Shown here: in pieces, positions 255 through 9,656 of the stretch
How the letters are laid out: every line of letters starts with the position of its first letter
Numbering within the stretch: the first letter of the stretch is position 1
Origin: a virus
Taxonomy: Duplodnaviria > Heunggongvirae > Uroviricota > Caudoviricetes
Reading direction: 5' to 3' (one strand)
IMG/VR virus record: IMGVR_UViG_2802429219_000002
DNA length: 18,727 nucleotides
The notes under the pieces: generated by a model
Told to the model about the DNA's origin: nothing
Databases searched by the model: none
The model's input: the letters and a program-made list of their open reading frames with translations, nothing else
Program-made: the position numbers and the translations under genes

Positions 255-289
255 TATAATCATAATGTTGCAGCAAGGTGGTTATAATT
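255..289 (+). promoter_or_regulatory. Putative sigma70 -10 elements and Shine-Dalgarno region upstream of trkG
   Basis: Two perfect TATAAT hexamers (255-260 and 284-289) and AAGGTGG (275-281) in an AT-rich leader. No convincing -35 at canonical spacing, so the promoter call is weak. Confidence 0.25.
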
Positions 290-305
290 GAAAGAATATT
301 TAGAT

Positions 306-1763
306 ATGAATACATCTCATGTAAGAGTTGTTACTCATATGTGTGGGTTCCTGGTTTGGCTCTATAGTCTTTCAATGTTGCCACCAATGGTTGTAGCATT
401 GTTTTATAAAGAAAAAAGCCTGTTCGTTTTCTTTATAACTTTCGTTATATTTTTTTGCATTGGTGGCGGAGCGTGGTATACAACTAAGAAATCTGGTATT
501 CAATTACGTACCCGTGATGGGTTTATTATAATTGTAATGTTTTGGATTTTGTTTTCTGTTATTAGTGCATTCCCTTTATGGATTGACTCAGAACTTAATT
601 TAACGTTTATTGATGCTCTATTTGAAGGGGTTTCTGGAATAACAACAACAGGAGCAACTGTAATTGATGATGTTAGTTCATTACCTCGGGCATATTTGTA
701 CTATCGGTCACAGTTAAATTTTATAGGTGGCTTAGGAGTTATTGTTCTGGCGGTTGCTGTATTGCCATTATTGGGTATTGGTGGTGCAAAGCTTTATCAG
801 TCAGAAATGCCAGGGCCATTTAAGGATGACAAACTTACTCCCCGCCTGGCCGATACGTCACGGACACTTTGGATAACTTATTCTTTATTAGGTATTGCTT
901 GTATTGTCTGTTATAGACTTGCAGGAATGCCTTTGTTTGATGCTATTTGTCACGGGATATCCACAGTTTCGCTTGGTGGTTTCTCAACTCATAGCGAGAG
1001 TATCGGATATTTTAATAACTATTTGGTTGAGCTGGTGGCTGGTTCTTTTTCCCTGCTATCGGCTTTCAACTTCACCCTTTGGTATATTGTTATTAGCAGG
1101 AAAACGTTAAAACCTTTAATCAGAGATATTGAACTTCGTTTCTTTCTGTTAATAGCCTTAGGGGTGATCATTGTTACCTCTTTCCAGGTCTGGCATATAG
1201 GTATGTATGACTTGCCTGGAAGTTTTATTCATTCGTTTTTTCTTGCCAGCTCCATGCTCACTGATAATGGTTTAGCTACGCAGGATTATGCAAACTGGCC
1301 CACGCACACGATAGTGTTTTTGCTGTTGTCAAGTTTCTTTGGGGGATGTATAGGTTCAACTTGTGGTGGAATTAAGTCACTTCGATTTCTTATACTTTTC
1401 AAACAAAGCAAACACGAGATAAACCAGCTTTCTCATCCCAGAGCGTTGTTGAGTGTAAATGTAGGAGGGAAGATAGTTACAGATCGTGTAATGAGGTCTG
1501 TATGGAGTTTCTTTTTTCTTTATACTCTCTTCACGGTGTTTTTTATACTGGTGTTAAATGGTATGGGATATGATTTTCTTACATCATTTGCAACAGTGGC
1601 TGCATGTATTAATAATATGGGATTAGGTTTTGGGGCTACTGCATCGTCATTCGGAGTGCTTAATGACATTGCAAAATATTTAATGTGCATAGCTATGATT
1701 CTTGGCCGCCTTGAAATTTATCCTGTTATTATATTGTTTTCAGGTTTTTTTTGGCGCTCCTAA
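306..1763 (+). CDS. trkG: Trk-system K+ uptake membrane protein TrkG (TrkH/KtrB superfamily)
   Basis: 485-aa polytopic membrane protein starting MNTSHVRVVTHMCGFLVWLYSL..., with repeated glycine-rich selectivity-filter-like segments (GITTTGATV, GGLGVIV, SLGGFSTHS, NMGLGFGA). Matches E. coli TrkG from memory, the Rac-prophage paralogue of trkH. The ORF track starts at TTG 288 (AAGGTGG lies 6 nt upstream); ATG 306 gives the recalled 485-aa length. Markedly AT-rich compared with the flanking phage genes. Confidence 0.9.
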   Translation: MNTSHVRVVTHMCGFLVWLYSLSMLPPMVVALFYKEKSLFVFFITFVIFFCIGGGAWYTTKKSGIQLRTRDGFIIIVMFWILFSVISAFPLWIDSELNLTFIDALFEGVSGITTTGATVIDDVSSLPRAYLYYRSQLNFIGGLGVIVLAVAVLPLLGIGGAKLYQSEMPGPFKDDKLTPRLADTSRTLWITYSLLGIACIVCYRLAGMPLFDAICHGISTVSLGGFSTHSESIGYFNNYLVELVAGSFSLLSAFNFTLWYIVISRKTLKPLIRDIELRFFLLIALGVIIVTSFQVWHIGMYDLPGSFIHSFFLASSMLTDNGLATQDYANWPTHTIVFLLLSSFFGGCIGSTCGGIKSLRFLILFKQSKHEINQLSHPRALLSVNVGGKIVTDRVMRSVWSFFFLYTLFTVFFILVLNGMGYDFLTSFATVAACINNMGLGFGATASSFGVLNDIAKYLMCIAMILGRLEIYPVIILFSGFFWRS

Positions 1764-1900
1764 TATATGGCTGATTTATAATTGTGAGTTTAATATTATA
1801 TTGACTCACTCATTGATCCAATACCTAACTTTACCAGCAACACCTCCGCCCCCAGTAGCACTGGCTGCTGGGGTGCGTTTTATTCATAAAGCAAGGCTGT

Positions 1901-2692
1901 ATGAGCGAGAAATTGAAGATCGTCTATCGCCCTTTACAAGAACTGTCTCCGTATGCACACAACGCCAGGACACACAGCCCTGAGCAGGTGGCACAACTGG
2001 TAGAAAGCATTAAGCAATTCGGCTGGACTAATCCGGTGCTGATTGATGAAAAGGGCGAAATTATTGCTGGTCACGGTCGCGTTATGGCGGCTGAAGTGCT
2101 CAAAATGGATTCCATTCCGGTCATCGTTCTGTCTGGTTTGATGGATGATCAGAAAAAGGCGTACCGCCTGGCAGATAATCGCCTGCCGATGAATGCTGGC
2201 TGGGATGAAGATCTGTTACGGATGGAGCTGTCGGACCTAATCAATGCTGATTTTGATGTCTCCCTGACAGGCTTCAGCCCGACAGAAATTGATGAACTGT
2301 TGACGGATGTTTTGCCCGGTACAGGAAATGAGGAGGAGCCGTATACGACGAAAATTGATACGCCTGTTTATGAGCCGTCGGGCGGTAAACCGGATATCAG
2401 TGAACTGTACGACGATACGAAAACACAGGAGCTGATCAGCCGGATACGTTCGGCGTCCCTTGAGCCTGATATTGAGAAATTCCTCCTGTGTGCGGCAGAA
2501 CGTCACACGGTGTTTAATTTCAGCAGAATTGCGGACTATTACGCTCACGCCCCCGCTGAAATTCAGTGTTTTTTCGAGGAGTCGGCGCTGGTGATCATTG
2601 ATTATCAGCAGGCTATTGAAAATGGATTTGTCCGGATGACGCAGCGCATGGTGGAGATCATGCATGGTGGTGAGGAGGAGGAATATGCGTGA
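1901..2692 (+). CDS. ParB-like nuclease domain (ParB N-terminal/sulfiredoxin fold) protein with uncharacterised C-terminal region
   Basis: 263-aa ORF. The N-terminus carries the ParB signature: SPYAHNARTHSPEQVAQLVESIKQFGWTNPVLIDEKGEIIAGHGRVMAAEVLKMDSIPVIVL (box II-like IIAGHGR, IPVIV strand). The C-terminus ends in an acidic tail, GGEEEEYA. Sits where I recall ynaK in K-12 Rac (unverified). Confidence 0.8.
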   Translation: MSEKLKIVYRPLQELSPYAHNARTHSPEQVAQLVESIKQFGWTNPVLIDEKGEIIAGHGRVMAAEVLKMDSIPVIVLSGLMDDQKKAYRLADNRLPMNAGWDEDLLRMELSDLINADFDVSLTGFSPTEIDELLTDVLPGTGNEEEPYTTKIDTPVYEPSGGKPDISELYDDTKTQELISRIRSASLEPDIEKFLLCAAERHTVFNFSRIADYYAHAPAEIQCFFEESALVIIDYQQAIENGFVRMTQRMVEIMHGGEEEEYA

Positions 2693-3617
2693 TGATTTTT
2701 GCGCCTTTATTCTGACTCACGGGCGACCGGACAAAGTTCTGACTTACCGGACGTTGCGTCGTGCTGGCTATACCGGGAAAATTTTTATCGTTGTTGATGA
2801 TGAAGATAAGACACGGCATCAGTACATGGCTGAATTTGGTGAACAGGTGCTGGTGTTTTCCAAAGCCGATATCGCCAGTCGTTTTGACGAAGCCGATAAT
2901 TTCGGTGACCGCCGCTCAATTTTTTACGCCCGTAATGCCTGTTTCGACCTGGCAAAACTGGTCGGGTGTAAATACTTCATTCAGCTCGATGATGATTATC
3001 ACGAGTTCCAGTTTCGGGTGGATCGCAACTATGACCAGGCCTATTTTCCGATAAGGAAACTGGATGCGATCCTTTCTGAAATGCTGGCGTACTACGAATC
3101 AATACCTGCTCTTTCCATCGCTATGTCGCAGGGCGGGGATTTTCTTGGTGACAATGGCGGCCATGCTTCGTGGGTGAAACGCAAGGCAATGAACAGCTTT
3201 ATCTGTTCGGTTGATCGACCGTTCTCATTCATGGGGCGCATTAACGAGGATGTGAATACGTACACGAATCTCGGTCGCTGTGGTGAATTGTTTATGACGA
3301 TCGGTGCTGTCCAGTTAGGGCAGAAACAGACGCAGAAAAACAGCGGCGGAATGACCGAGCTGTATCTGGATTCCGGAACCTACGTTAAAAGTTTTTACTC
3401 CGTCATGTATGCGCCGTCGTGCGTAAAAATCTCACTGATGGGTGCCAGCCATAAACGCATTCACCATCAGGTCACCAGGAACAACGCTGCAGTAAAAATC
3501 CTTCACGAAAAATACAGGAAGAAGACACCCTGCATATCAATAGGGGTGACAAATGATTCCGTATTCGAAAGTCGAGTCTCTGGCAGCGTGCCGGATGACT
3601 GCACAACAAATCGCTGA
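2685..3617 (+). CDS. Hypothetical protein; possible GT-A-like nucleotide-sugar transferase fold (two DxD-like acidic motifs); function unknown
   Basis: Start ATG 2685 is preferred over the track's 2664 because GAGGAGGAGG (2672-2681) sits 4-6 nt upstream. Its start overlaps the ParB-like gene stop by 8 nt (ATGCGTGA), suggesting translational coupling. Hydrophobic strand + acidic motifs FILTHGRP, KIFIVVDDEDK and YFIQLDDDYHEF resemble a GT-A/Rossmann-like arrangement; this is a guess by eye only. Confidence 0.65.
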   Translation: MRDDFCAFILTHGRPDKVLTYRTLRRAGYTGKIFIVVDDEDKTRHQYMAEFGEQVLVFSKADIASRFDEADNFGDRRSIFYARNACFDLAKLVGCKYFIQLDDDYHEFQFRVDRNYDQAYFPIRKLDAILSEMLAYYESIPALSIAMSQGGDFLGDNGGHASWVKRKAMNSFICSVDRPFSFMGRINEDVNTYTNLGRCGELFMTIGAVQLGQKQTQKNSGGMTELYLDSGTYVKSFYSVMYAPSCVKISLMGASHKRIHHQVTRNNAAVKILHEKYRKKTPCISIGVTNDSVFESRVSGSVPDDCTTNR

Positions 3618-3804
3618 CGTTCTGGATGTTGATCTGAACCGACTGAAAGAAAATCGGGAAGCAATGACAGATTTTTATGCGGCCATCCGTAAGGGCAGAG
3701 CGAAAGGTGAAGCCGAGTTACGAGCGGCATTGTTTAAGCTTGCCAGAAAAGGGGATGCCTTTGCTCTGCGCGAACTACTCAGGGTGGATAAAAATCAGGA
3801 CTAA
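3553..3804 (+). CDS. Small (83 aa) HTH-like protein of unknown function immediately upstream of the small terminase gene
   Basis: SD-like AGGGGTGA 3542-3549 then ATG 3553. Overlaps the 3' end of the previous CDS by 65 nt in another frame. Helix-turn-helix-like segment MTAQQIADVLDVDLNRLKEN followed by a basic helix. Stop TAA 3802-3804 lies 3 nt before the terS ATG. Confidence 0.5.
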   Translation: MIPYSKVESLAACRMTAQQIADVLDVDLNRLKENREAMTDFYAAIRKGRAKGEAELRAALFKLARKGDAFALRELLRVDKNQD

Positions 3805-3807
3805 CTG

Positions 3808-4902
3808 ATGAGCAGACCGGACTGGGGGGCGTTGCAGCAGGAGTATATTGCTGAATACACCCGCTCCGGTATATCTCCGGTGGCATGGTGTGAAGCAAGG
3901 GGACTGAATTACGCAACAGCCCGTCGTTACATCAAAAAACCTCCGAAAAATGCGCAGACAGAAATGCGCAAAACTGCGCAAAAAAGTGCGCAGAAAAAAT
4001 CTGCGCAGACTGCACAAAAGCGGAACGAAAAATCTCAGGAAAAAAAGCCAGTATTCGATGCGGGCCTGAATGAGGGCGACGCGGAGGAATTTTCGTTCTG
4101 TCCCGATGAATTCGGCATTTCTGACCAGCAGGCTAAGTTTGCGATGCTTGTTGCTCAGGGGAAAAAGCCGACAGAGGCGTACCGACTAGCCGGTTATGAG
4201 GGGCAAGGTGCGACAGCTAACAGCAACGCCAGTCGTATGCTTAGAAATGCCAGGGTTTTTCGCGCTATCAGCTACTTCCGCAATCAGTACCAGAAACGCT
4301 ATACCGCAGACCTGGATTTACTGGTGAGTCAGTTGATGGCCATTGTCCTGGCCGACCCCAATCAGCTTGCACAATTTCGCCGTGTTAACTGCCGTTATTG
4401 CTGGGGCGAGAATCATCTCTACCAGTGGCGCGATATAGCAGAATTCGACAAGGCAGCGGCGCAGGCTTCCAGAGATGGCAAACCCGAACCGGAATATGGA
4501 GGCCTCGGCTTTGTTGATAACGCCATACCCAATCCGGACTGCCCGAAGTGCTGCGGTGAGGGAACGGGACAGCTTTATATGGCTGATACCACTCTGCTTG
4601 ATGGGGATGCGCGGCAATTATATGCAGGGGCAAAACTCGGAAAATTCGGCGTTGAGATCCTGCTGGAGGATAAGGCTGCCGCCCGGCGTGAATTGTTGCG
4701 TTTGCTTTCTGCTGGCGGGGCTTTATGTGCAGATAAGCGGCTACAGGAACTGGAAATTGAACGACGCAGAATGGAAAACCAGAAGCTGCGCAAAGAGATC
4801 GAAACGGTGGAAGATAATGAACATCCCCAGCCTGTGGCGATCAATATTAATGTGGTTGATGCCAGAGTAAGGAGTGATGAAGATGATCTCTCCGACGCTT
4901 AA
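3808..4902 (+). CDS. Terminase small subunit (Terminase_2-like) with N-terminal HTH, lysine-rich repeat linker and Cys4 zinc-ribbon-like cluster
   Basis: N-terminal HTH (ISPVAWCEARGLNYATARRYI), Terminase_2-like segment (KPTEAYRLAGYEGQGATANSNASRMLRNARVFRAI), cysteines CRYC ... CPKCC, coiled-coil C-terminus. Lies directly upstream of and overlapping the large terminase gene. Unusually long (364 aa) for a TerS. Confidence 0.7.
   Translation: MSRPDWGALQQEYIAEYTRSGISPVAWCEARGLNYATARRYIKKPPKNAQTEMRKTAQKSAQKKSAQTAQKRNEKSQEKKPVFDAGLNEGDAEEFSFCPDEFGISDQQAKFAMLVAQGKKPTEAYRLAGYEGQGATANSNASRMLRNARVFRAISYFRNQYQKRYTADLDLLVSQLMAIVLADPNQLAQFRRVNCRYCWGENHLYQWRDIAEFDKAAAQASRDGKPEPEYGGLGFVDNAIPNPDCPKCCGEGTGQLYMADTTLLDGDARQLYAGAKLGKFGVEILLEDKAAARRELLRLLSAGGALCADKRLQELEIERRRMENQKLRKEIETVEDNEHPQPVAININVVDARVRSDEDDLSDA
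3951..4016 (+). repeat. Array of five TGCGCA palindromic hexamers (plus one TGCACA variant) separated by A-tracts, inside the terS coding region; candidate pac/terminase recognition site
   Basis: TGCGCA at 3951, 3965, 3975, 3987 and 4002; TGCACA at 4011. Start-to-start spacings are 14, 10, 12, 15 and 9 bp, each hexamer flanked by A3-A6 runs. The same DNA encodes the peptide repeat KNAQTEMRKTAQKSAQKKSAQTAQKR. Confidence 0.6.
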
Positions 4903-6184
4903 TGTGCCTCAGGCGCGATTTCTTTCAATGCCCCATAAATTTAAAGCCTATATTGCTGGTTTTGGCTCGGGCAAAACATGGGTTGGGTGTGGCGGCATAT
5001 GCAAGGGGATTTGGGAGCATCCAGGTATAAATCAGGGATATTTTGCGCCAACGTATCCCCAAATTCGCGATATTTTTTACCCTACAGTGGAAGAAGTTGC
5101 TGCTGACTGGGGATTGAACGTAAAAATTAATGAGGGAAATAAAGAGGTTCACTTTTATTACGGACGCCAGTATCGGGGAACCACTATCTGCAGATCGATG
5201 GAGAAGCCACAAACGATCGTCGGTTTCAAAATTGGTAATGCGCTGGTGGATGAACTGGACATTTTGCCGAAGGAAAAAGCCAGAACGGCGTGGCGCAAGA
5301 TAATTGCGCGTATGCGTTATAAGATTGATGGACTTCGCAACGGTATTGACGTTACAACCACGCCGGAAGGATTCAAATTTGTCTACGAGCAGTTTGTTAA
5401 AGCCGTGCGTGAAAAAACAGAGCTGGCCTCACTGTATGGTCTGGTGCAGGCATCTACTTTCGATAATGAAAAGAACCTGCCAGCAGATTACATTCCTTCG
5501 CTTCTTGAATCATACCCTCCAGAGCTGATTAAAGCCTATCTTCGAGGACAGTTTACTAACCTGACAAGTGGTACTGTTTACCATCAGTTTGACCGGAAAC
5601 TGAATAATTGCGAAGAAGTGGAGCAGCCAGGGGAGCCGATTTATATTGGGATGGATTTTAACGTTGGAAAGATGGCGGGGATCGTCCATGTGCTGCGTTT
5701 GGGGCTTCCATGTGCGGTAACTGAAATCATCAATGCCTACGATACGCCGGATATGATCCGCATCATTAAAGAACGCTTCTGGCTGTATGACGGGAATGAT
5801 TACCGGAAAGTGAGGGAGATTTATATTTATCCAGATGCTTCCGGAGATTCCAGAAAATCAAGTAACGCAAGTACGACGGATATAGCCCAGCTTAAGCAGG
5901 CTGGTTTTAACGTTGTGGTGAACAGCTCGAACCCGCCAGTAAAAGATCGCGTTAACTCAATGAATGCAATGTTCTGCAATGCCAATGGTGAGCGTCGCTA
6001 TAAAGTTAATGTGAAGCGTTGTCCGGTATATGCCGAATCTCTGGAGCAACAGGTCTGGGATGATAAGGGGGAGCCTGATAAAAAATCTGGCAATGATCAC
6101 CCGAATGATGCCGGAGGTTATTTCATCGTTAAGCAATTCCCTATTGTCAAACCGACCGGAAGAGTCACATCACTTCGGATTTAA
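4883..6184 (+). CDS. Terminase large subunit (ATPase/nuclease)
   Basis: Walker A-like GFGSGKT near the N-terminus, ~434 aa, positioned between TerS and portal. Start is ambiguous (GTG 4874, ATG 4877, ATG 4883); AAGGAG at 4869-4874 favours ATG 4883. Overlaps the terS 3' end. Confidence 0.85.
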   Translation: MISPTLNVPQARFLSMPHKFKAYIAGFGSGKTWVGCGGICKGIWEHPGINQGYFAPTYPQIRDIFYPTVEEVAADWGLNVKINEGNKEVHFYYGRQYRGTTICRSMEKPQTIVGFKIGNALVDELDILPKEKARTAWRKIIARMRYKIDGLRNGIDVTTTPEGFKFVYEQFVKAVREKTELASLYGLVQASTFDNEKNLPADYIPSLLESYPPELIKAYLRGQFTNLTSGTVYHQFDRKLNNCEEVEQPGEPIYIGMDFNVGKMAGIVHVLRLGLPCAVTEIINAYDTPDMIRIIKERFWLYDGNDYRKVREIYIYPDASGDSRKSSNASTTDIAQLKQAGFNVVVNSSNPPVKDRVNSMNAMFCNANGERRYKVNVKRCPVYAESLEQQVWDDKGEPDKKSGNDHPNDAGGYFIVKQFPIVKPTGRVTSLRI

Positions 6185-7593: not shown

Positions 7594-8689
7594 ACGGCTG
7601 CGTGATGAATCAATTGCTCATGCAGTCTGGATATCCCGCTATAGCACTGGTGTGGCTGCCAGAATGGTGAAAATACTGAATGACAGCGATGCGGAGCTTA
7701 CAGCTCGCCTGCTGGTAGCACTGGACAGCCTCGATCCTGGTAGTTTTACCGTTACGCGCCTGGAGTCACTTCTGGCGAGTGTCAGAGAGGTTAACCGCGC
7801 TGCTATTAACAGCATGTTTACCAGTCTCTCCGGAGAGCTGAACGAGCTGGCAATTTATGAGGCTGGTTATCAGTTAAGTCTGTTTGATTCTCTGCTACCT
7901 GATTTTGTTGCTGATGTTCACCCTCTGGTTGGTATATCTTCTGATGCACTTTACGCCGCTGCAATGGCGCGACCATTCCAGGGACGACTGCTCAGTGAGT
8001 GGGCCTTGGATCTTGAGGCGGATCGGCTCAGACGCATAACAAATACGGTGCGTCAGGGTTTTTTGCTGGGGGATACCAATGAGCAGATCGCAAGAAAAAT
8101 TCGGGGACATGTCAGCAAGGGATTTCAGGATGGTGCATTGCAGATGAGCCGGGCTAATGCGGCCAGCATTGCAAAAACAGCGGTTGGACATCTTGCTGCT
8201 ACTGCCCGTGAGAGTTTTGCCAGCGCGAATAATGATTTGATTAAGGGTAAGCAATGGTTATCAACGCTTGATAATCGTACTACGCCACAATGTCGAATCA
8301 GGGATCGCCTCAAATATACGCTGGATAATAAACCTGTAGGTCACAGTGTGCCTTATTTGCATGGGCCGGGAAAAATTCATTTCTGCTGCCGCTCAACGGA
8401 AACGTTCATTCTGAAATCAGCGAAGGAACTGGGTATTGATGTTCGTGATATTTCCCCGGCTGAGCGGGCCAGCATGGATGGCGTGGTGGCCGGAGATACA
8501 ACCTACAGGGAATGGTTTTTGCGTCAGCCTTACACCAGACAAAAACAGATTGTGGGGGAAACCCGGGCAAAGCTGATTCGGGATGGCGGTATGTCGCCAG
8601 ATGAATTTTACACCGATAAAGGCGAATGGCTGACGCTGAAGCAACTCCGTGAGCGTGATGCACAGGTATTCAGAAAAGCAGGGATTTAA
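7574..8689 (+). CDS. Head morphogenesis protein (phage Mu F-like / SPP1 gp7-like minor head protein)
   Basis: 371 aa, overlaps the portal 3' end by 20 nt. Central region KGKQWLSTLDNRTTPQCRIRDRLKYTLDNKPVGHSVPYLHGPGKIHFCCRSTE resembles the Mu-F family core (recalled). Confidence 0.75.
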   Translation: MMQTVNERLRDESIAHAVWISRYSTGVAARMVKILNDSDAELTARLLVALDSLDPGSFTVTRLESLLASVREVNRAAINSMFTSLSGELNELAIYEAGYQLSLFDSLLPDFVADVHPLVGISSDALYAAAMARPFQGRLLSEWALDLEADRLRRITNTVRQGFLLGDTNEQIARKIRGHVSKGFQDGALQMSRANAASIAKTAVGHLAATARESFASANNDLIKGKQWLSTLDNRTTPQCRIRDRLKYTLDNKPVGHSVPYLHGPGKIHFCCRSTETFILKSAKELGIDVRDISPAERASMDGVVAGDTTYREWFLRQPYTRQKQIVGETRAKLIRDGGMSPDEFYTDKGEWLTLKQLRERDAQVFRKAGI

Positions 8690-8709
8690 ATAAATCATTT
8701 ATTACAACA

Positions 8710-8733
8710 GGCTACCTTCGGGTGGCCTTTTTT
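8710..8733 (+). terminator. Rho-independent terminator-like hairpin downstream of the head morphogenesis gene
   Basis: GGCTACC (8710-8716), loop TTCG, GGTGGCC (8721-8727; one G-U pair), followed by TTTTTT (8728-8733). Confidence 0.6.
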
Positions 8734-8793
8734 ATTGCTGCGATCCGGATGGTGAGCAGCGTAACTGTCGGAAGACTTAAACCAGGTACTAAT

Positions 8794-9558
8794 ATGAAAC
8801 TGAAAGCGGTCGAGATTAACGGAAAACAATACGCAGAAATTGATACTGCTGGCCTGCCAGTTTATGTGCACGACGATGGTAAAGAAATCGGCTTCGATGC
8901 ACCGCTGGCGATAAAAAAAATTACAGAGCTTAATGGCGAGGCAAAAAATCATCGCCTGGCTAAAGAAGCTGCAGAGGAAAAACTGGCTAAGTTTGCCGCT
9001 ATCGAAGACCCGAAGAAGGCGATCGAGGCACTGGAAATGCTGTCAAAAATCGACCAGAAAAAGCTGATCGATGCGGGACAGGTTGACCAGGTTAAGGCAG
9101 AAATTACGAAAAATTTTCAGCAGCAATTAGATGAAGAAAAGCAACGCTCTCAGATGCTGGAGACGCAGCTTTACGATTCTATGATTGGCGGTAGTTTTGC
9201 GGGTTCAAAATATATTGCCGATAAAATTGCGATCCCGGCAGATTTATTACAAGCCCGCTTCGGGCAGGCATTCAAAGTGGAAGAAGGGAAGATCGTTGCT
9301 TATGACGCTTCCGGCAACAAAATTTATTCCCGCGCGAAGCCTGGCGAACTGGCGCAGTTTGATGAGGCGCTGGAGTTCCTCGTCGAAAATTACCCTCAGA
9401 AAGACTACATCCTGAAAGCCAGTGGCAACAATGGCGGCGGCTCCCGTCCGACACAGCATGATATTGGTCAGAAAACGATGAAACGCTCTGCTTTTGATGC
9501 ACTGGATGTTGCAGGTAAGCAAAACGCATTGAAAGACGGTATCACAATTGTTGATTAA
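8794..9558 (+). CDS. Scaffolding protein (putative)
   Basis: 254-aa charged, helix-rich protein (EAAEEKLAKFAAIEDPKKAIEALEMLSKIDQKKLIDAGQVDQVKAEI...) immediately upstream of the major capsid gene. Start ATG 8794 chosen because the track's ATG 8722 lies inside the terminator hairpin. Confidence 0.6.
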   Translation: MKLKAVEINGKQYAEIDTAGLPVYVHDDGKEIGFDAPLAIKKITELNGEAKNHRLAKEAAEEKLAKFAAIEDPKKAIEALEMLSKIDQKKLIDAGQVDQVKAEITKNFQQQLDEEKQRSQMLETQLYDSMIGGSFAGSKYIADKIAIPADLLQARFGQAFKVEEGKIVAYDASGNKIYSRAKPGELAQFDEALEFLVENYPQKDYILKASGNNGGGSRPTQHDIGQKTMKRSAFDALDVAGKQNALKDGITIVD

Positions 9559-9656
9559 CACATTTGTCAGCTTCCGGATGGGAGCTGGTGTCAGGGCTGG
9601 ATAGCTCATTACTCCATCTATTCACAATTACGCAAATTTTTAAGGAATATTTAATT

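What the first reader, a model, noticed from the sequence alone, without database searches (positions are those of the whole stretch)
1901..3617. Coupled accessory pair: ParB-like nuclease-domain protein plus ~310-aa DxD-motif protein of unknown function
The two genes overlap by 8 nt (ATGCGTGA). The GAGGAGGAGG stretch encoding the acidic GGEEEEYA tail of the first protein doubles as the ribosome-binding site of the second, so the pair is probably co-translated as one unit. The first has a clear ParB N-terminal fold. The second has alternating hydrophobic strands and acidic motifs (FIVVDDED, FIQLDDDY) that look like a nucleotide-binding GT-A fold, which would suggest a DNA- or nucleotide-modifying enzyme. 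The pair sits in the accessory slot between the trkG cargo and the packaging genes, where lambdoid phages carry anti-restriction, DNA-modification or defence cargo. I cannot assign either protein's function, so this is the best candidate for an undescribed system in the window.
Basis: partly seen in the sequence, partly recalled or inferred. Interest (0 to 1): 0.65.

Follow-up and report, generated by a model that had tools for sequence, protein, structure and literature searches.

The report
Phage ParB-partnered DNA glycosyltransferase pair
These two overlapping genes of an E. coli Rac-like prophage encode a sugar-transferring enzyme of a phage DNA-glycosylating family and its dedicated ParB-like partner; the cassette sits beside DNA-packaging or DNA-replication genes in viruses of many bacteria and one archaeon, yet the enzyme that normally prepares DNA for sugar attachment is missing, so its target is unknown.

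Summary
Gene A (1901-2692, 263 aa) is the full-length form of E. coli ynaK: a ParB/Srx nucleotide-binding N-domain, a disordered linker with an invariant YTxKIxxPxYEP motif, and a helical C-terminal domain (CTD) with no Pfam family. Gene B (2685-3617, 310 aa) is a GT-A glycosyltransferase of Pfam TAGT (PF20691, E 7.5e-35), the family of the T2/T6 enzyme. They overlap by ATGCGTGA, just upstream of the terminase genes.

This is an instance of the 'ParB-terminase large subunit locus' that Iyer et al. (2013) predicted to modify phage DNA at packaging, so the kind is not undescribed.

Three points seem to be new:
- The constant partner of this TAGT subfamily is the CTD. It lies directly upstream in all 37 sequence clusters and in 79 of 80 further viral contigs, usually overlapping by 8 or 11 nt.
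- When ParB_N is absent, the cassette sits among replisome genes (DNA polymerase, sliding clamp, DnaB).
- No TET/5mYOX or thymidylate-synthase-type enzyme turned up nearby, nor is there a candidate in the complete 31.8-kb phage c5.

Most likely it is a two-subunit, DNA-directed glycosyltransferase with an unknown acceptor. Solitary TAGTs are an acknowledged open question, testable here in E. coli.

The parts
1850..1873 (+). Terminator-like GC-rich hairpin followed by a T-run, after trkG and 27 nt before gene A. No promoter match better than chance precedes the pair, so it is probably read as part of the late operon.
1901..2692 (+). Gene A: full-length YnaK, 263 aa, acidic (pI 4.5). It is the ParB/Srx-type partner subunit.
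1901..2308 (+). ParB/Srx nucleotide-binding N-domain plus helical extension (residues 1-136). It has a GHGR motif in place of GERR (box II) and an invariant D92-N93. The same module is fused to DNA methyltransferases in other phages (PHROG 498 E 4.5e-50; PADLOC MTase_II E 5e-38). No HTH DNA-binding domain was detected.
2342..2377 (+). Invariant linker motif YTTKIDTPVYEP (residues 148-159). Y148, P155 and Y157 are conserved in >=97% of 159 diverse sequences. It lies inside a segment predicted to be disordered (137-169).
2408..2662 (+). Helical C-terminal domain (residues ~170-254) with near-universal F194, L195, R201, H202, A211, Y214, E226, S228, D234 and G242. It has no Pfam family. Together with the linker motif it is the part that always accompanies this TAGT subfamily.
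2672..2681 (+). GAGGAGGAGG: it codes the acidic tail of A and is Shine-Dalgarno-like for B, ending 3 nt before the ATG.
2685..2692 (+). ATGCGTGA: the start codon of B overlaps the stop codon of A by 8 nt. This is the commonest arrangement across all homologous loci.
2685..3617 (+). Gene B: TAGT-family GT-A glycosyltransferase, 310 aa, pI 8.3. The last ~22 residues are a non-conserved extension that overlaps the next gene.
2988..2996 (+). DDD (D102-D104): the DxD metal/NDP-sugar motif, invariant. Together with invariant R14 and E188-D189 (3246-3251) it appears to match (my assignment by position, not aligned to their sequences) the R...DDD...ED(Y/F) signature reported for phage DNA GT-A enzymes.
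   Evidence: motif from bioRxiv 10.1101/2023.12.21.572611
3595..3804 (+). Context: small ORF (69-83 aa) with similarity to part of a small-terminase family (PHROG 309). It overlaps the 3' end of B.
3808..4902 (+). Context: terminase small subunit (Terminase_2).
4874..6184 (+). Context: terminase large subunit (Terminase_6N/6C), the 'Tls' end of the ParB-Tls locus.

Best explanation
The pair is a two-subunit, DNA-directed glycosyltransferase module of the phage 'ParB-terminase large subunit' locus. B is the catalytic GT-A enzyme, which uses an NDP-sugar donor through its DxD motif. A is its obligate partner. The linker motif and C-terminal domain of A bind or complete the enzyme. The ParB/Srx nucleotide-binding N-domain of A couples the enzyme to double-stranded phage DNA at the time of packaging, in the way a ParB-like protein activates a phage thymine dioxygenase on dsDNA. 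The genes are expressed with the late operon and translated as a coupled pair, so newly replicated phage DNA would be sugar-modified just before or during packaging, presumably to blunt host nucleases in the next host.

Shown: family membership, fold, the catalytic motifs, the strict CTD-TAGT coupling, and the neighbourhood of terminase or replisome genes.

Inferred: physical interaction of A and B, DNA as the substrate, the timing, and the benefit to the phage.

Unknown: the acceptor atom. No hydroxymethyl-pyrimidine-forming enzyme accompanies the pair, so the acceptor is either a canonical DNA component or something not yet recognised.
For: - Fold and layout of A: ParB/Srx fold. Its layout is N-domain, short helical segment, disordered linker, CTD, with no DNA-binding domain. 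This is the layout of ParB176, which activates 5mYOX176 on dsDNA (PMC13229309).
- The N-module of A is the one fused to phage DNA methyltransferases.
- Coupling: a CTD-bearing ORF lies directly upstream of the TAGT gene in 37/37 clusters and in 79/80 further viral contigs, and in 76/79 of these it lies within -14 to +8 nt. CTD and TAGT divergence are correlated (Mantel r 0.85, 0/2000 permutations).
- Two neighbourhoods, both DNA machines. With ParB_N, most first large ORFs downstream carry terminase-large-subunit domains, at least 20 of 24 by Pfam family counts, from at least four Pfam TerL families. Without ParB_N, the cassette lies between DNA polymerase A and the beta clamp, or next to DnaB, RecA, clamp loader or primase genes.
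- Breadth: E. coli, Lactobacillus, Nocardia and Porphyromonas phages, Haloarcula virus HHTV-2, and MAGs of several further phyla.
- The ParB-Tls locus was already predicted to modify DNA during packaging (PMC6536676 and PMC4738411).
Against: - No DNA modification has been measured for any phage carrying this pair, as far as I could find.
- Known TAGT-type and JGT-type enzymes need a hydroxyl on a hydroxymethyl base or on a sugar. No TET/5mYOX or thymidylate-synthase-type enzyme appeared among the most frequent families in 146 upstream ORFs of 30 loci or in 150 ORFs of the CTD-only loci. The Pfam neighbour lists of six metagenome contigs lack it. The whole Rac-like prophage has none annotated, and the complete phage c5 has no ORF long enough.
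- A is strongly acidic (pI 4.5) and has no recognisable DNA-binding domain.
- The C-terminal half of B and the CTD of A were modelled with low confidence.
- GREB1, a relative of this superfamily, glycosylates a protein (PMC7968844).
Confidence: 0.55

Rival explanations
1. B is a protein glycosyltransferase whose substrate is its own partner, or a packaging or replication protein. The invariant Tyr/Thr-rich linker motif of A (YTxKIxxPxYEP) would be the acceptor peptide, as in glycogenin-type self-glucosylation. DNA would be only the place where the glycoprotein acts.
For: - Among the proteins I tracked (partner, TerL, replisome genes), A's linker motif plus CTD is the only one that accompanies B everywhere. 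That would fit an enzyme-substrate pair.
- The motif sits in a predicted disordered segment with two invariant tyrosines.
- Glycogenin and the peptide S-glycosyltransferase SunS are among the top structural matches of B.
- GREB1 glycosylates a protein.
- No hydroxylated base is available.
Against: - The family's only biochemically defined members act on DNA.
- A conserved motif in a linker is equally expected for a docking site.
- The polar invariants of the CTD (R201, H202, E226, D234) suggest more than an acceptor peptide.
- A protein-only role does not explain why the partner carries a ParB module, or why the cassette sits in replisome clusters.
Confidence: 0.15
2. This is classical hydroxymethyl-pyrimidine glycosylation. 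B glycosylates 5hmC or 5hmU made by an enzyme that is unlinked, too divergent to recognise, or host-encoded.
For: - This is the family's known chemistry.
- The authors of PMC13229309 report thousands of candidate contigs without a TET/JBP annotation, which may hold divergent dioxygenases.
- My neighbourhood screens show only the most frequent families, so rare occurrences cannot be excluded.
Against: - The complete 50-ORF genome of phage c5 has the pair but no uncharacterised ORF longer than 208 aa, apart from structural, replication and lysis genes.
- The whole Rac-like prophage has no candidate annotated.
- As far as I know (own knowledge, not tested here), hosts spanning Haloarcula to E. 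coli to Lactobacillus share no such enzyme.
- The pair is syntenic with terminase or replisome genes, not with any third modification gene.
Confidence: 0.12
3. The pair serves inter-phage competition or defence. The prophage-encoded enzyme over-glycosylates or mis-glycosylates the hydroxymethylated DNA of superinfecting phages such as T-even phages, and does not mark its own DNA.
For: - The T2/T6 relative acts on glucosyl-hmC.
- The authors of bioRxiv 10.1101/2023.12.21.572611 raise anti-phage activity of prophage GTs as a possibility.
- Rac carries other exclusion genes, such as sieB.
Against: - The pair has no PADLOC defence match.
- It lies in the late operon behind a terminator-like hairpin, with no promoter match above chance.
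- It occurs in virulent phages (c5) and in replisome clusters of large lytic phages.
- It occurs in taxa where hmC phages are not known.
Confidence: 0.06
4. The pair is a packaging accessory without DNA chemistry. The ParB-like protein helps the terminase recognise or process DNA, and the glycosyltransferase-like protein is structural, inactive, or acts on a small molecule such as a nucleotide sugar.
For: - The pair has a constant position just before the terminase genes.
- In Nocardia phage NTR1 the large terminase follows with no small-subunit gene between.
- ParB/Srx proteins include nucleases and kinases.
Against: - All catalytic GT-A motifs are invariant across phyla.
- About a quarter of loci lack ParB_N and sit in replication modules, not packaging modules.
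- The terminases that follow belong to at least four unrelated Pfam families, which argues against a specific protein-protein partnership.
Confidence: 0.05

Closest known systems
ParB-Tls (ParB - terminase large subunit) loci of phages and prophages (Iyer, Zhang, Burroughs, Aravind 2013, NAR 41:7635; not readable here, quoted in PMC6536676, PMC4738411 and PMC8256090)
   Same: A ParB-like gene, then a DNA-modifying enzyme gene, then the terminase genes. [quoted passage not shown] The window shows exactly this order.
   Different: That description is computational, and as quoted it centres on methyltransferases and TET-linked pathways. I could not read the original, so I do not know whether it notes the dedicated C-terminal domain, the CTD-only form, or the lack of a hydroxymethylase.
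ParB-dependent phage thymine dioxygenases, e.g. 5mYOX176/ParB176 (O'Toole et al. 2026, PMC13229309)
   Same: The ParB-like protein has a nucleotide-binding N-domain, a short helical segment, a long disordered linker and a C-terminal domain, with no DNA-binding domain. It is encoded next to a post-replicative DNA-modifying enzyme. ParB176 pairs fairly specifically with its own enzyme and is required on dsDNA.
   Different: There the partner enzyme is an Fe/2-oxoglutarate dioxygenase, not a glycosyltransferase. Homology between the two C-terminal domains was not tested because no sequence was available. Functional dependence is not shown here.
T2/T6 beta-glucosyl-HMC-alpha-glucosyltransferase and 5mYOX- or ThyS-associated phage GT-A DNA glycosyltransferases (PF20691; PMC13216743; bioRxiv 10.1101/2023.12.21.572611); trypanosome JGT
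   Same: Same Pfam and PHROG family, GT-A fold, and R...DDD...ED signature. All are phage-encoded.
   Different: Those enzymes act on a hydroxymethyl base or on its sugar and come with an enzyme that makes that base. They are too distant for tblastn: no T2/T6 hit at E 1e-3. The T4-like Aeh1 homologue has no CTD partner gene within 2.5 kb. The subfamily here is the 'solitary TAGT' class that the 2026 paper flags as unexplained (288 of 753 phage genomes).
ParB_N-DNA methyltransferase fusions of phages (PHROG 498, PADLOC MTase_II; Kaljevic et al. 2025, PMC12704722; Paracoccus phages, PMC6536676)
   Same: The same N-terminal ParB module (residues 3-141 match at E 4.5e-50) and the same position upstream of the terminase.
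   Different: There the modifying enzyme is fused covalently. Here the ParB module is fused to an adaptor-like domain and the enzyme is a separate, translationally coupled protein.

Membership tests
TAGT, TET-associated glycosyltransferase (Pfam PF20691) | Sequence match to the family profile above the curated cut-off | tested here: met
   121.2 bits against 27.5, residues 8-222 covering profile positions 4-205 of 205; PHROG 842 E 3.6e-102
TAGT, TET-associated glycosyltransferase (Pfam PF20691) | GT-A fold with DxD and the R...DDD...ED(Y/F) active-site signature | tested here: met
TAGT, TET-associated glycosyltransferase (Pfam PF20691) | Genomic association with an enzyme that makes the hydroxymethyl-pyrimidine acceptor (TET/5mYOX, or a ThyS-type hydroxymethylase plus alpha/beta-GT) | tested here: not met
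   None in the window, in the whole prophage, in six Pfam-annotated contigs, or in complete phage c5. None among the frequent families of 296 neighbouring ORFs.
TAGT, TET-associated glycosyltransferase (Pfam PF20691) | Sugar transfer to DNA | not testable with these tools
   Needs biochemistry or nucleoside mass spectrometry
ParB-Tls locus (Iyer et al. 2013) | A DNA-modifying enzyme gene lying between a ParB-like gene and the terminase large subunit gene | tested here: met
   Window order: A 1901-2692, B 2685-3617, terS 3808-4902, terL 4874-6184. The same order is seen in most of the 24 representative loci, at least 20 by Pfam family counts.
ParB-activated DNA-modifying enzyme pairs (O'Toole et al. 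2026) | ParB-like protein with NBD, disordered linker and CTD, and without a DNA-binding domain | tested here: met
   AF2 model: residues 1-135 ordered ParB/Srx fold, 137-169 disordered, 170-254 helical. Pfam finds only ParB_N. Described layout of ParB176.
ParB-activated DNA-modifying enzyme pairs (O'Toole et al. 2026) | The partner enzyme is a 5-methylpyrimidine dioxygenase | tested here: not met
   The partner is a GT-A glycosyltransferase
ParB-activated DNA-modifying enzyme pairs (O'Toole et al. 2026) | Enzyme activity on dsDNA depends on the ParB-like protein | not testable with these tools
   Only genomic coupling and correlated divergence are shown
Canonical ParABS partition ParB | HTH DNA-binding domain, ParA partner, parS sites, match to TIGR00180 above its cut-off | tested here: not met
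   TIGR00180 scores 36 bits against a cut-off of 58.45, N-domain only. No HTH family hit. No ParA in the prophage. No palindromic repeat family near the pair.
Known anti-phage defence systems (PADLOC-DB 2.0) | Match to a defence-system protein model | tested here: not met
   B has no hit. A matches only the ParB-like N-terminus of a methyltransferase model.

The most novel reading that the evidence does not exclude
The CTD-TAGT cassette is a self-sufficient two-subunit enzyme that puts a sugar directly on canonical DNA, either on a base nitrogen or on another universal DNA group. It would need no hydroxymethyl precursor. It would be coupled to the terminase through a fused ParB module, or to the replisome when that module is absent. 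This would be a new type of DNA modification, spread over more than a thousand phage lineages from archaeal viruses to E. coli prophages. The unnamed ~115-residue C-terminal domain, with its invariant Y, Y, R-H, E and D residues, would be a new obligatory subunit and perhaps part of the active site.
Probability: 0.25. Interest if true: 0.85.

Novelty: new variant of a known kind. Interest (0 to 1): 0.5.

Why it matters
Two recent experimental papers leave the same gap. About 65% of some 25,000 phage glycosyltransferase contigs have no neighbouring base-modifying enzyme (bioRxiv 10.1101/2023.12.21.572611). In addition, 288 of 753 TAGT-encoding phage genomes have a 'solitary' TAGT (PMC13216743).

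This window places a member of that unexplained class in an E. coli prophage present intact in about one in six complete E. coli genomes, where it can be tested directly. The analysis adds a concrete handle. The solitary enzyme is not solitary, because it always comes with a small partner domain, usually fused to a ParB module.

If the pair glycosylates DNA without a hydroxymethyl precursor, that is new DNA chemistry. It would bear on how phages evade restriction and on DNA-labelling tools. If it glycosylates its partner protein instead, it shows that this enzyme family is not restricted to DNA. Either result also tests the 2013 prediction that ParB-like proteins steer modification enzymes onto DNA at packaging.

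Tried and rejected
1. Gene B is not the intact form of the K-12 ydaY pseudogene, as I first noted. ydaY lies in the tail region, and K-12 ynaK is a deletion remnant of gene A.
2. Sequence search of solved structures with the TAGT profile found nothing.
3. tblastn from B, and from the T4-like Aeh1 homologue, did not reach T2/T6. The link to the characterised enzyme therefore rests on the shared Pfam/PHROG family as stated in PMC13216743.
4. The first IMG/VR scan returned almost only Rac-like loci. The genome-contig scan gave only 20 loci because the search patterns were narrow. A second viral scan seeded with a distant member gave the diverse set.
5. The original Iyer 2013 paper could not be read, and no supplementary sequences of ParB176 are held. 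Homology between the two kinds of ParB C-terminal domain is therefore untested.
6. The afdb50 fold library was unavailable, so the reported JGT structural link could not be re-checked.
8. 50 of the 191 kb of the Vibrio phage pv27 genome were inspected for a thymidylate-synthase-type enzyme and none was found. The rest was not read.
9. Repeat and promoter scans around the pair showed no parS-like palindromes and no promoter signal above chance.
10. Both structure-prediction jobs went on the single proteins, so no model of the complex could be made.
11. Pfam screens of neighbouring ORFs list only the 25 commonest families. They can exclude a regular TET or ThyS neighbour but not a rare one.
Full report
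**What is there**

The window is the late region of an E. coli Rac-like prophage. trkG (288-1763) is followed by gene A (1901-2692, 263 aa) and gene B (2685-3617, 310 aa). Next come a small ORF, the small and large terminase subunits, portal, head and tail genes.

- The stop of A and the start of B overlap as ATGCGTGA at 2685-2692.
- GAGGAGGAGG (2672-2681) encodes the acidic tail of A and lies 3 nt before the ATG of B.
- In RefSeq, A is 'ynaK, ParB/Srx family N-terminal domain-containing protein'. B is 'hypothetical protein' or 'GREB1-related protein'.

The K-12 ynaK gene (87 aa) is a deletion remnant of A. B is deleted in K-12, and my early idea that B equals ydaY was wrong. The pair matches in 1566 of 5426 complete E. 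coli genomes, and 889 carry it at >=80% coverage. trkG has 37.7% GC. The pair has 48-50%, like the rest of the late operon. trkG is therefore the foreign insert and the pair is not. A terminator-like hairpin (1850-1873) follows trkG, and no promoter match above chance precedes A.

**What the proteins are**

A has three parts:
- A predicted disordered linker (137-169).
- A helical C-terminal domain.

GHGR replaces the GERR box, with the last arginine invariant, and D92-N93 are invariant. No HTH domain is found, and the protein is acidic (pI 4.5). The N-module (residues 3-141) is the one found fused to phage DNA methyltransferases (PHROG 498 E 4.5e-50; PADLOC MTase_II E 5e-38).

**The pair elsewhere**

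The same overlapping pair, followed by terminase genes, occurs in:
- metagenomic phage contigs with unrelated terminases and capsids; one further contig carries the pair with no terminase within the 6 kb downstream that it holds;
- Lactobacillus gasseri phage phi jlb1;
- the virulent L. delbrueckii phage c5, where the two genes are ORF1 and ORF2 right after cos;
- Nocardia phage NTR1;
- a Porphyromonas gingivalis phage;
- the archaeal Haloarcula virus HHTV-2.

Genomes and MAGs of Saccharibacteria, Desulfovibrionaceae, Bacteroides, Lachnospiraceae, Thiotrichales and Hyphomonadaceae carry B homologues at 50-57% identity.

I built HMMs of B, of the N-domain of A and of the linker plus C-terminal domain (CTD) of A. 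I then scanned all ORFs of 113 loci. All 37 clusters (90% identity) have a CTD-bearing ORF upstream on the same strand. In 33 of them its stop lies within -11 to +8 nt of the start of B, most often -8. A second viral-contig scan, seeded with the most distant member, gave 80 diverse loci. 79 have the CTD ORF; the exception has B at the contig edge. 76 of the 79 lie within -14 to +8 nt. Divergence of the CTD and of B is correlated (Mantel r 0.85, 0 of 2000 permutations). This shows inheritance as a unit but does not prove contact.

**The constant partner is the CTD**

In about 20 of the 80 loci, in Vibrio jumbo phage pv27 and in a Lachnospiraceae MAG, the upstream protein is only 120-148 aa. It consists of the motif plus the CTD, with no ParB_N.

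A phmmer search with the CTD alone against 1.84 billion representatives found 1188 clusters (1001 at E <= 1e-10). The domain is nearly always at the C-terminus of a 250-300 aa protein. Pfam recognises only ParB_N in the proteins checked.

Across 159 diverse sequences the near-universal residues are Y148, P155, Y157, P164, F194, L195, A198, A199, R201, H202, A211, Y214, Q222, E226, S228, L230, D234, A238 and G242 (renumbered by +2). The T4-like Aeromonas phage Aeh1 homologue of B is distant from this subfamily and has no such partner gene within 2.5 kb.

**Two neighbourhoods**

With ParB_N, the first ORF of 380 aa or more downstream carries terminase-large-subunit domains in most of 24 representative loci, at least 20 by the Pfam family counts. 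These come from at least four Pfam families (Terminase_6N, Terminase_3, TerL_ATPase, GpA_ATPase); four members also hit a T7-type terminase nuclease domain.

Without ParB_N, the cassette lies inside replisome clusters:
- DNA polymerase A, CTD, TAGT, beta clamp in L142 and L126 (both neighbours checked by Pfam); L169 has ORFs of the same sizes and spacing that I did not scan one by one. In L125 a second TAGT lies upstream and the beta clamp downstream.
- next to DnaB in L152, L135, L127 and L197;
- with RecA, clamp loader and primase genes nearby.

Some loci carry a second TAGT in tandem (L125, L193, probably L126). Both settings are DNA machines. This is the strongest argument that DNA is the substrate or the site of action.

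**What is missing**

Known enzymes of this family need a hydroxyl, either on a hydroxymethyl pyrimidine made by a TET-type dioxygenase or a ThyS-type hydroxymethylase, or on a sugar already attached. I found no such enzyme in any of these places:
- the window, or the whole prophage;
- the Pfam neighbour lists of six metagenome contigs;
- the frequent families of 146 upstream ORFs from 30 loci and of 150 ORFs from the CTD-only loci;
- the complete 31.8-kb genome of phage c5, whose unassigned ORFs are all 208 aa or shorter.

The family screens list only the 25 commonest families. Rare occurrences are therefore not excluded, but a regular partner is.

**Comparison with the literature**

Iyer et al. 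(2013) defined the ParB-Tls locus, in which DNA-modifying genes sit between a ParB-like gene and the terminase large subunit. They proposed that ParB steers the modification apparatus during packaging. I could not read that paper. The statement is quoted in PMC6536676, PMC4738411 and PMC8256090.

O'Toole et al. (2026) showed that a phage ParB-like protein with the same layout as A is required by a thymine dioxygenase on dsDNA and is fairly specific for its own enzyme.

Two papers flag the class to which B belongs as unexplained:
- About 65% of some 25,000 GT contigs lack a 5mYOX or ThyS neighbour.
- 288 of 753 phage genomes have a solitary TAGT.

None of the papers I could read mentions the dedicated C-terminal domain, its ParB-less form, or the replisome setting.

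**Interpretation**

I read the pair as a two-subunit, DNA-directed glycosyltransferase. B is catalytic. The motif and CTD of A bind or complete it. The ParB module, when present, couples it to DNA at packaging.

I give this 0.55. The family, fold and coupling are solid. The DNA substrate is inferred from context, and the acceptor is unknown.

The rivals are:
- glycosylation of the partner protein itself, on the invariant tyrosine-rich motif (0.15);
- classical hydroxymethyl-base glycosylation with a hidden or unlinked precursor enzyme (0.12);
- action on the DNA of competing phages (0.06);
- a packaging accessory without DNA chemistry (0.05).

**Verdict**

The claim of an undescribed system is only partly right, because the locus type and the enzyme family are known. 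I rate it a new variant of a known kind. It is of moderate interest because it places an acknowledged open problem in a tractable E. coli prophage and supplies a specific, testable partner domain.

Noticed in passing
window 288-1763 and 1850-1873: trkG has 37.7% GC against 46-52% for the surrounding phage genes and ends with a strong terminator-like hairpin. It looks like the true foreign insert (moron) of this region, placed between the lysis genes and the ParB-Tls locus.
   Followed up: partly
window 3953-4018 (also 4765-4794): Closely spaced CGCAGA...TGCGCAAA-type direct repeats and small hairpins lie inside the 5' part of the small terminase gene. This region encodes a lysine/glutamine-rich low-complexity stretch. 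The repeats may be the pac site, as in other phages whose pac lies within terS.
   Followed up: no
window 3553-3804: A small ORF (83 aa; annotated as 69 aa from 3595 in RefSeq) matches the middle of a small-terminase PHROG (309, E 8e-23). It overlaps the non-conserved C-terminal extension of gene B. The prophage therefore has two small-terminase-like genes in a row.
   Followed up: no
proteins P0192, P0205, P0209, P0210, P0222, P0235, P0237; K-12 ynaK: Many E. coli records encode chimeras of the first ~160 residues of gene A fused to Lom, tail-fibre, NlpC/P60 or terminase fragments. Only 889 of 1566 genomes with a match keep the whole pair. Deletions with one end inside ynaK seem to recur in Rac-like prophages, and K-12 ynaK is one such remnant. 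A 2026 screen reports that overexpressing this remnant raises the MIC of six antibiotics (PMC12924614).
   Followed up: partly
L002 15837-16894 and L003 8659-9716: Two Glycos_transf_2 genes follow the major capsid gene in a metagenomic phage that also has the ParB-TAGT pair. They may serve virion glycosylation and are separate from the pair studied here.
   Followed up: no
L125 8764-9603, L193 8717-9589, L126 8394-9631: Some ParB-less loci carry a second, divergent TAGT gene directly upstream of the CTD gene. In L126 a second CTD ORF (8394-8801) lies upstream of an adjacent ORF (8798-9631) that may be a second TAGT, suggesting the whole cassette is duplicated (not verified). Sequential glycosyltransferases would fit the building of a disaccharide.
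   Followed up: partly
alignment A4: downstream TerL genes of the representative loci: Two of the large terminase genes downstream of the pair carry LAGLIDADG or homing-endonuclease (intein-like) domains.
   Followed up: no
L154 8141-9358 and related loci: IS200/IS605-type TnpB genes (OrfB_IS605 plus a Cas12f1-like TNB domain) lie next to the CTD-TAGT cassette in three of the large-phage contigs.
   Followed up: no
L149 4139-4942: Here the partner protein is full length (267 aa) and has the CTD, but its N-terminal half does not match my ParB_N profile. It may be a very divergent ParB module or a different N-terminal domain.
   Followed up: no
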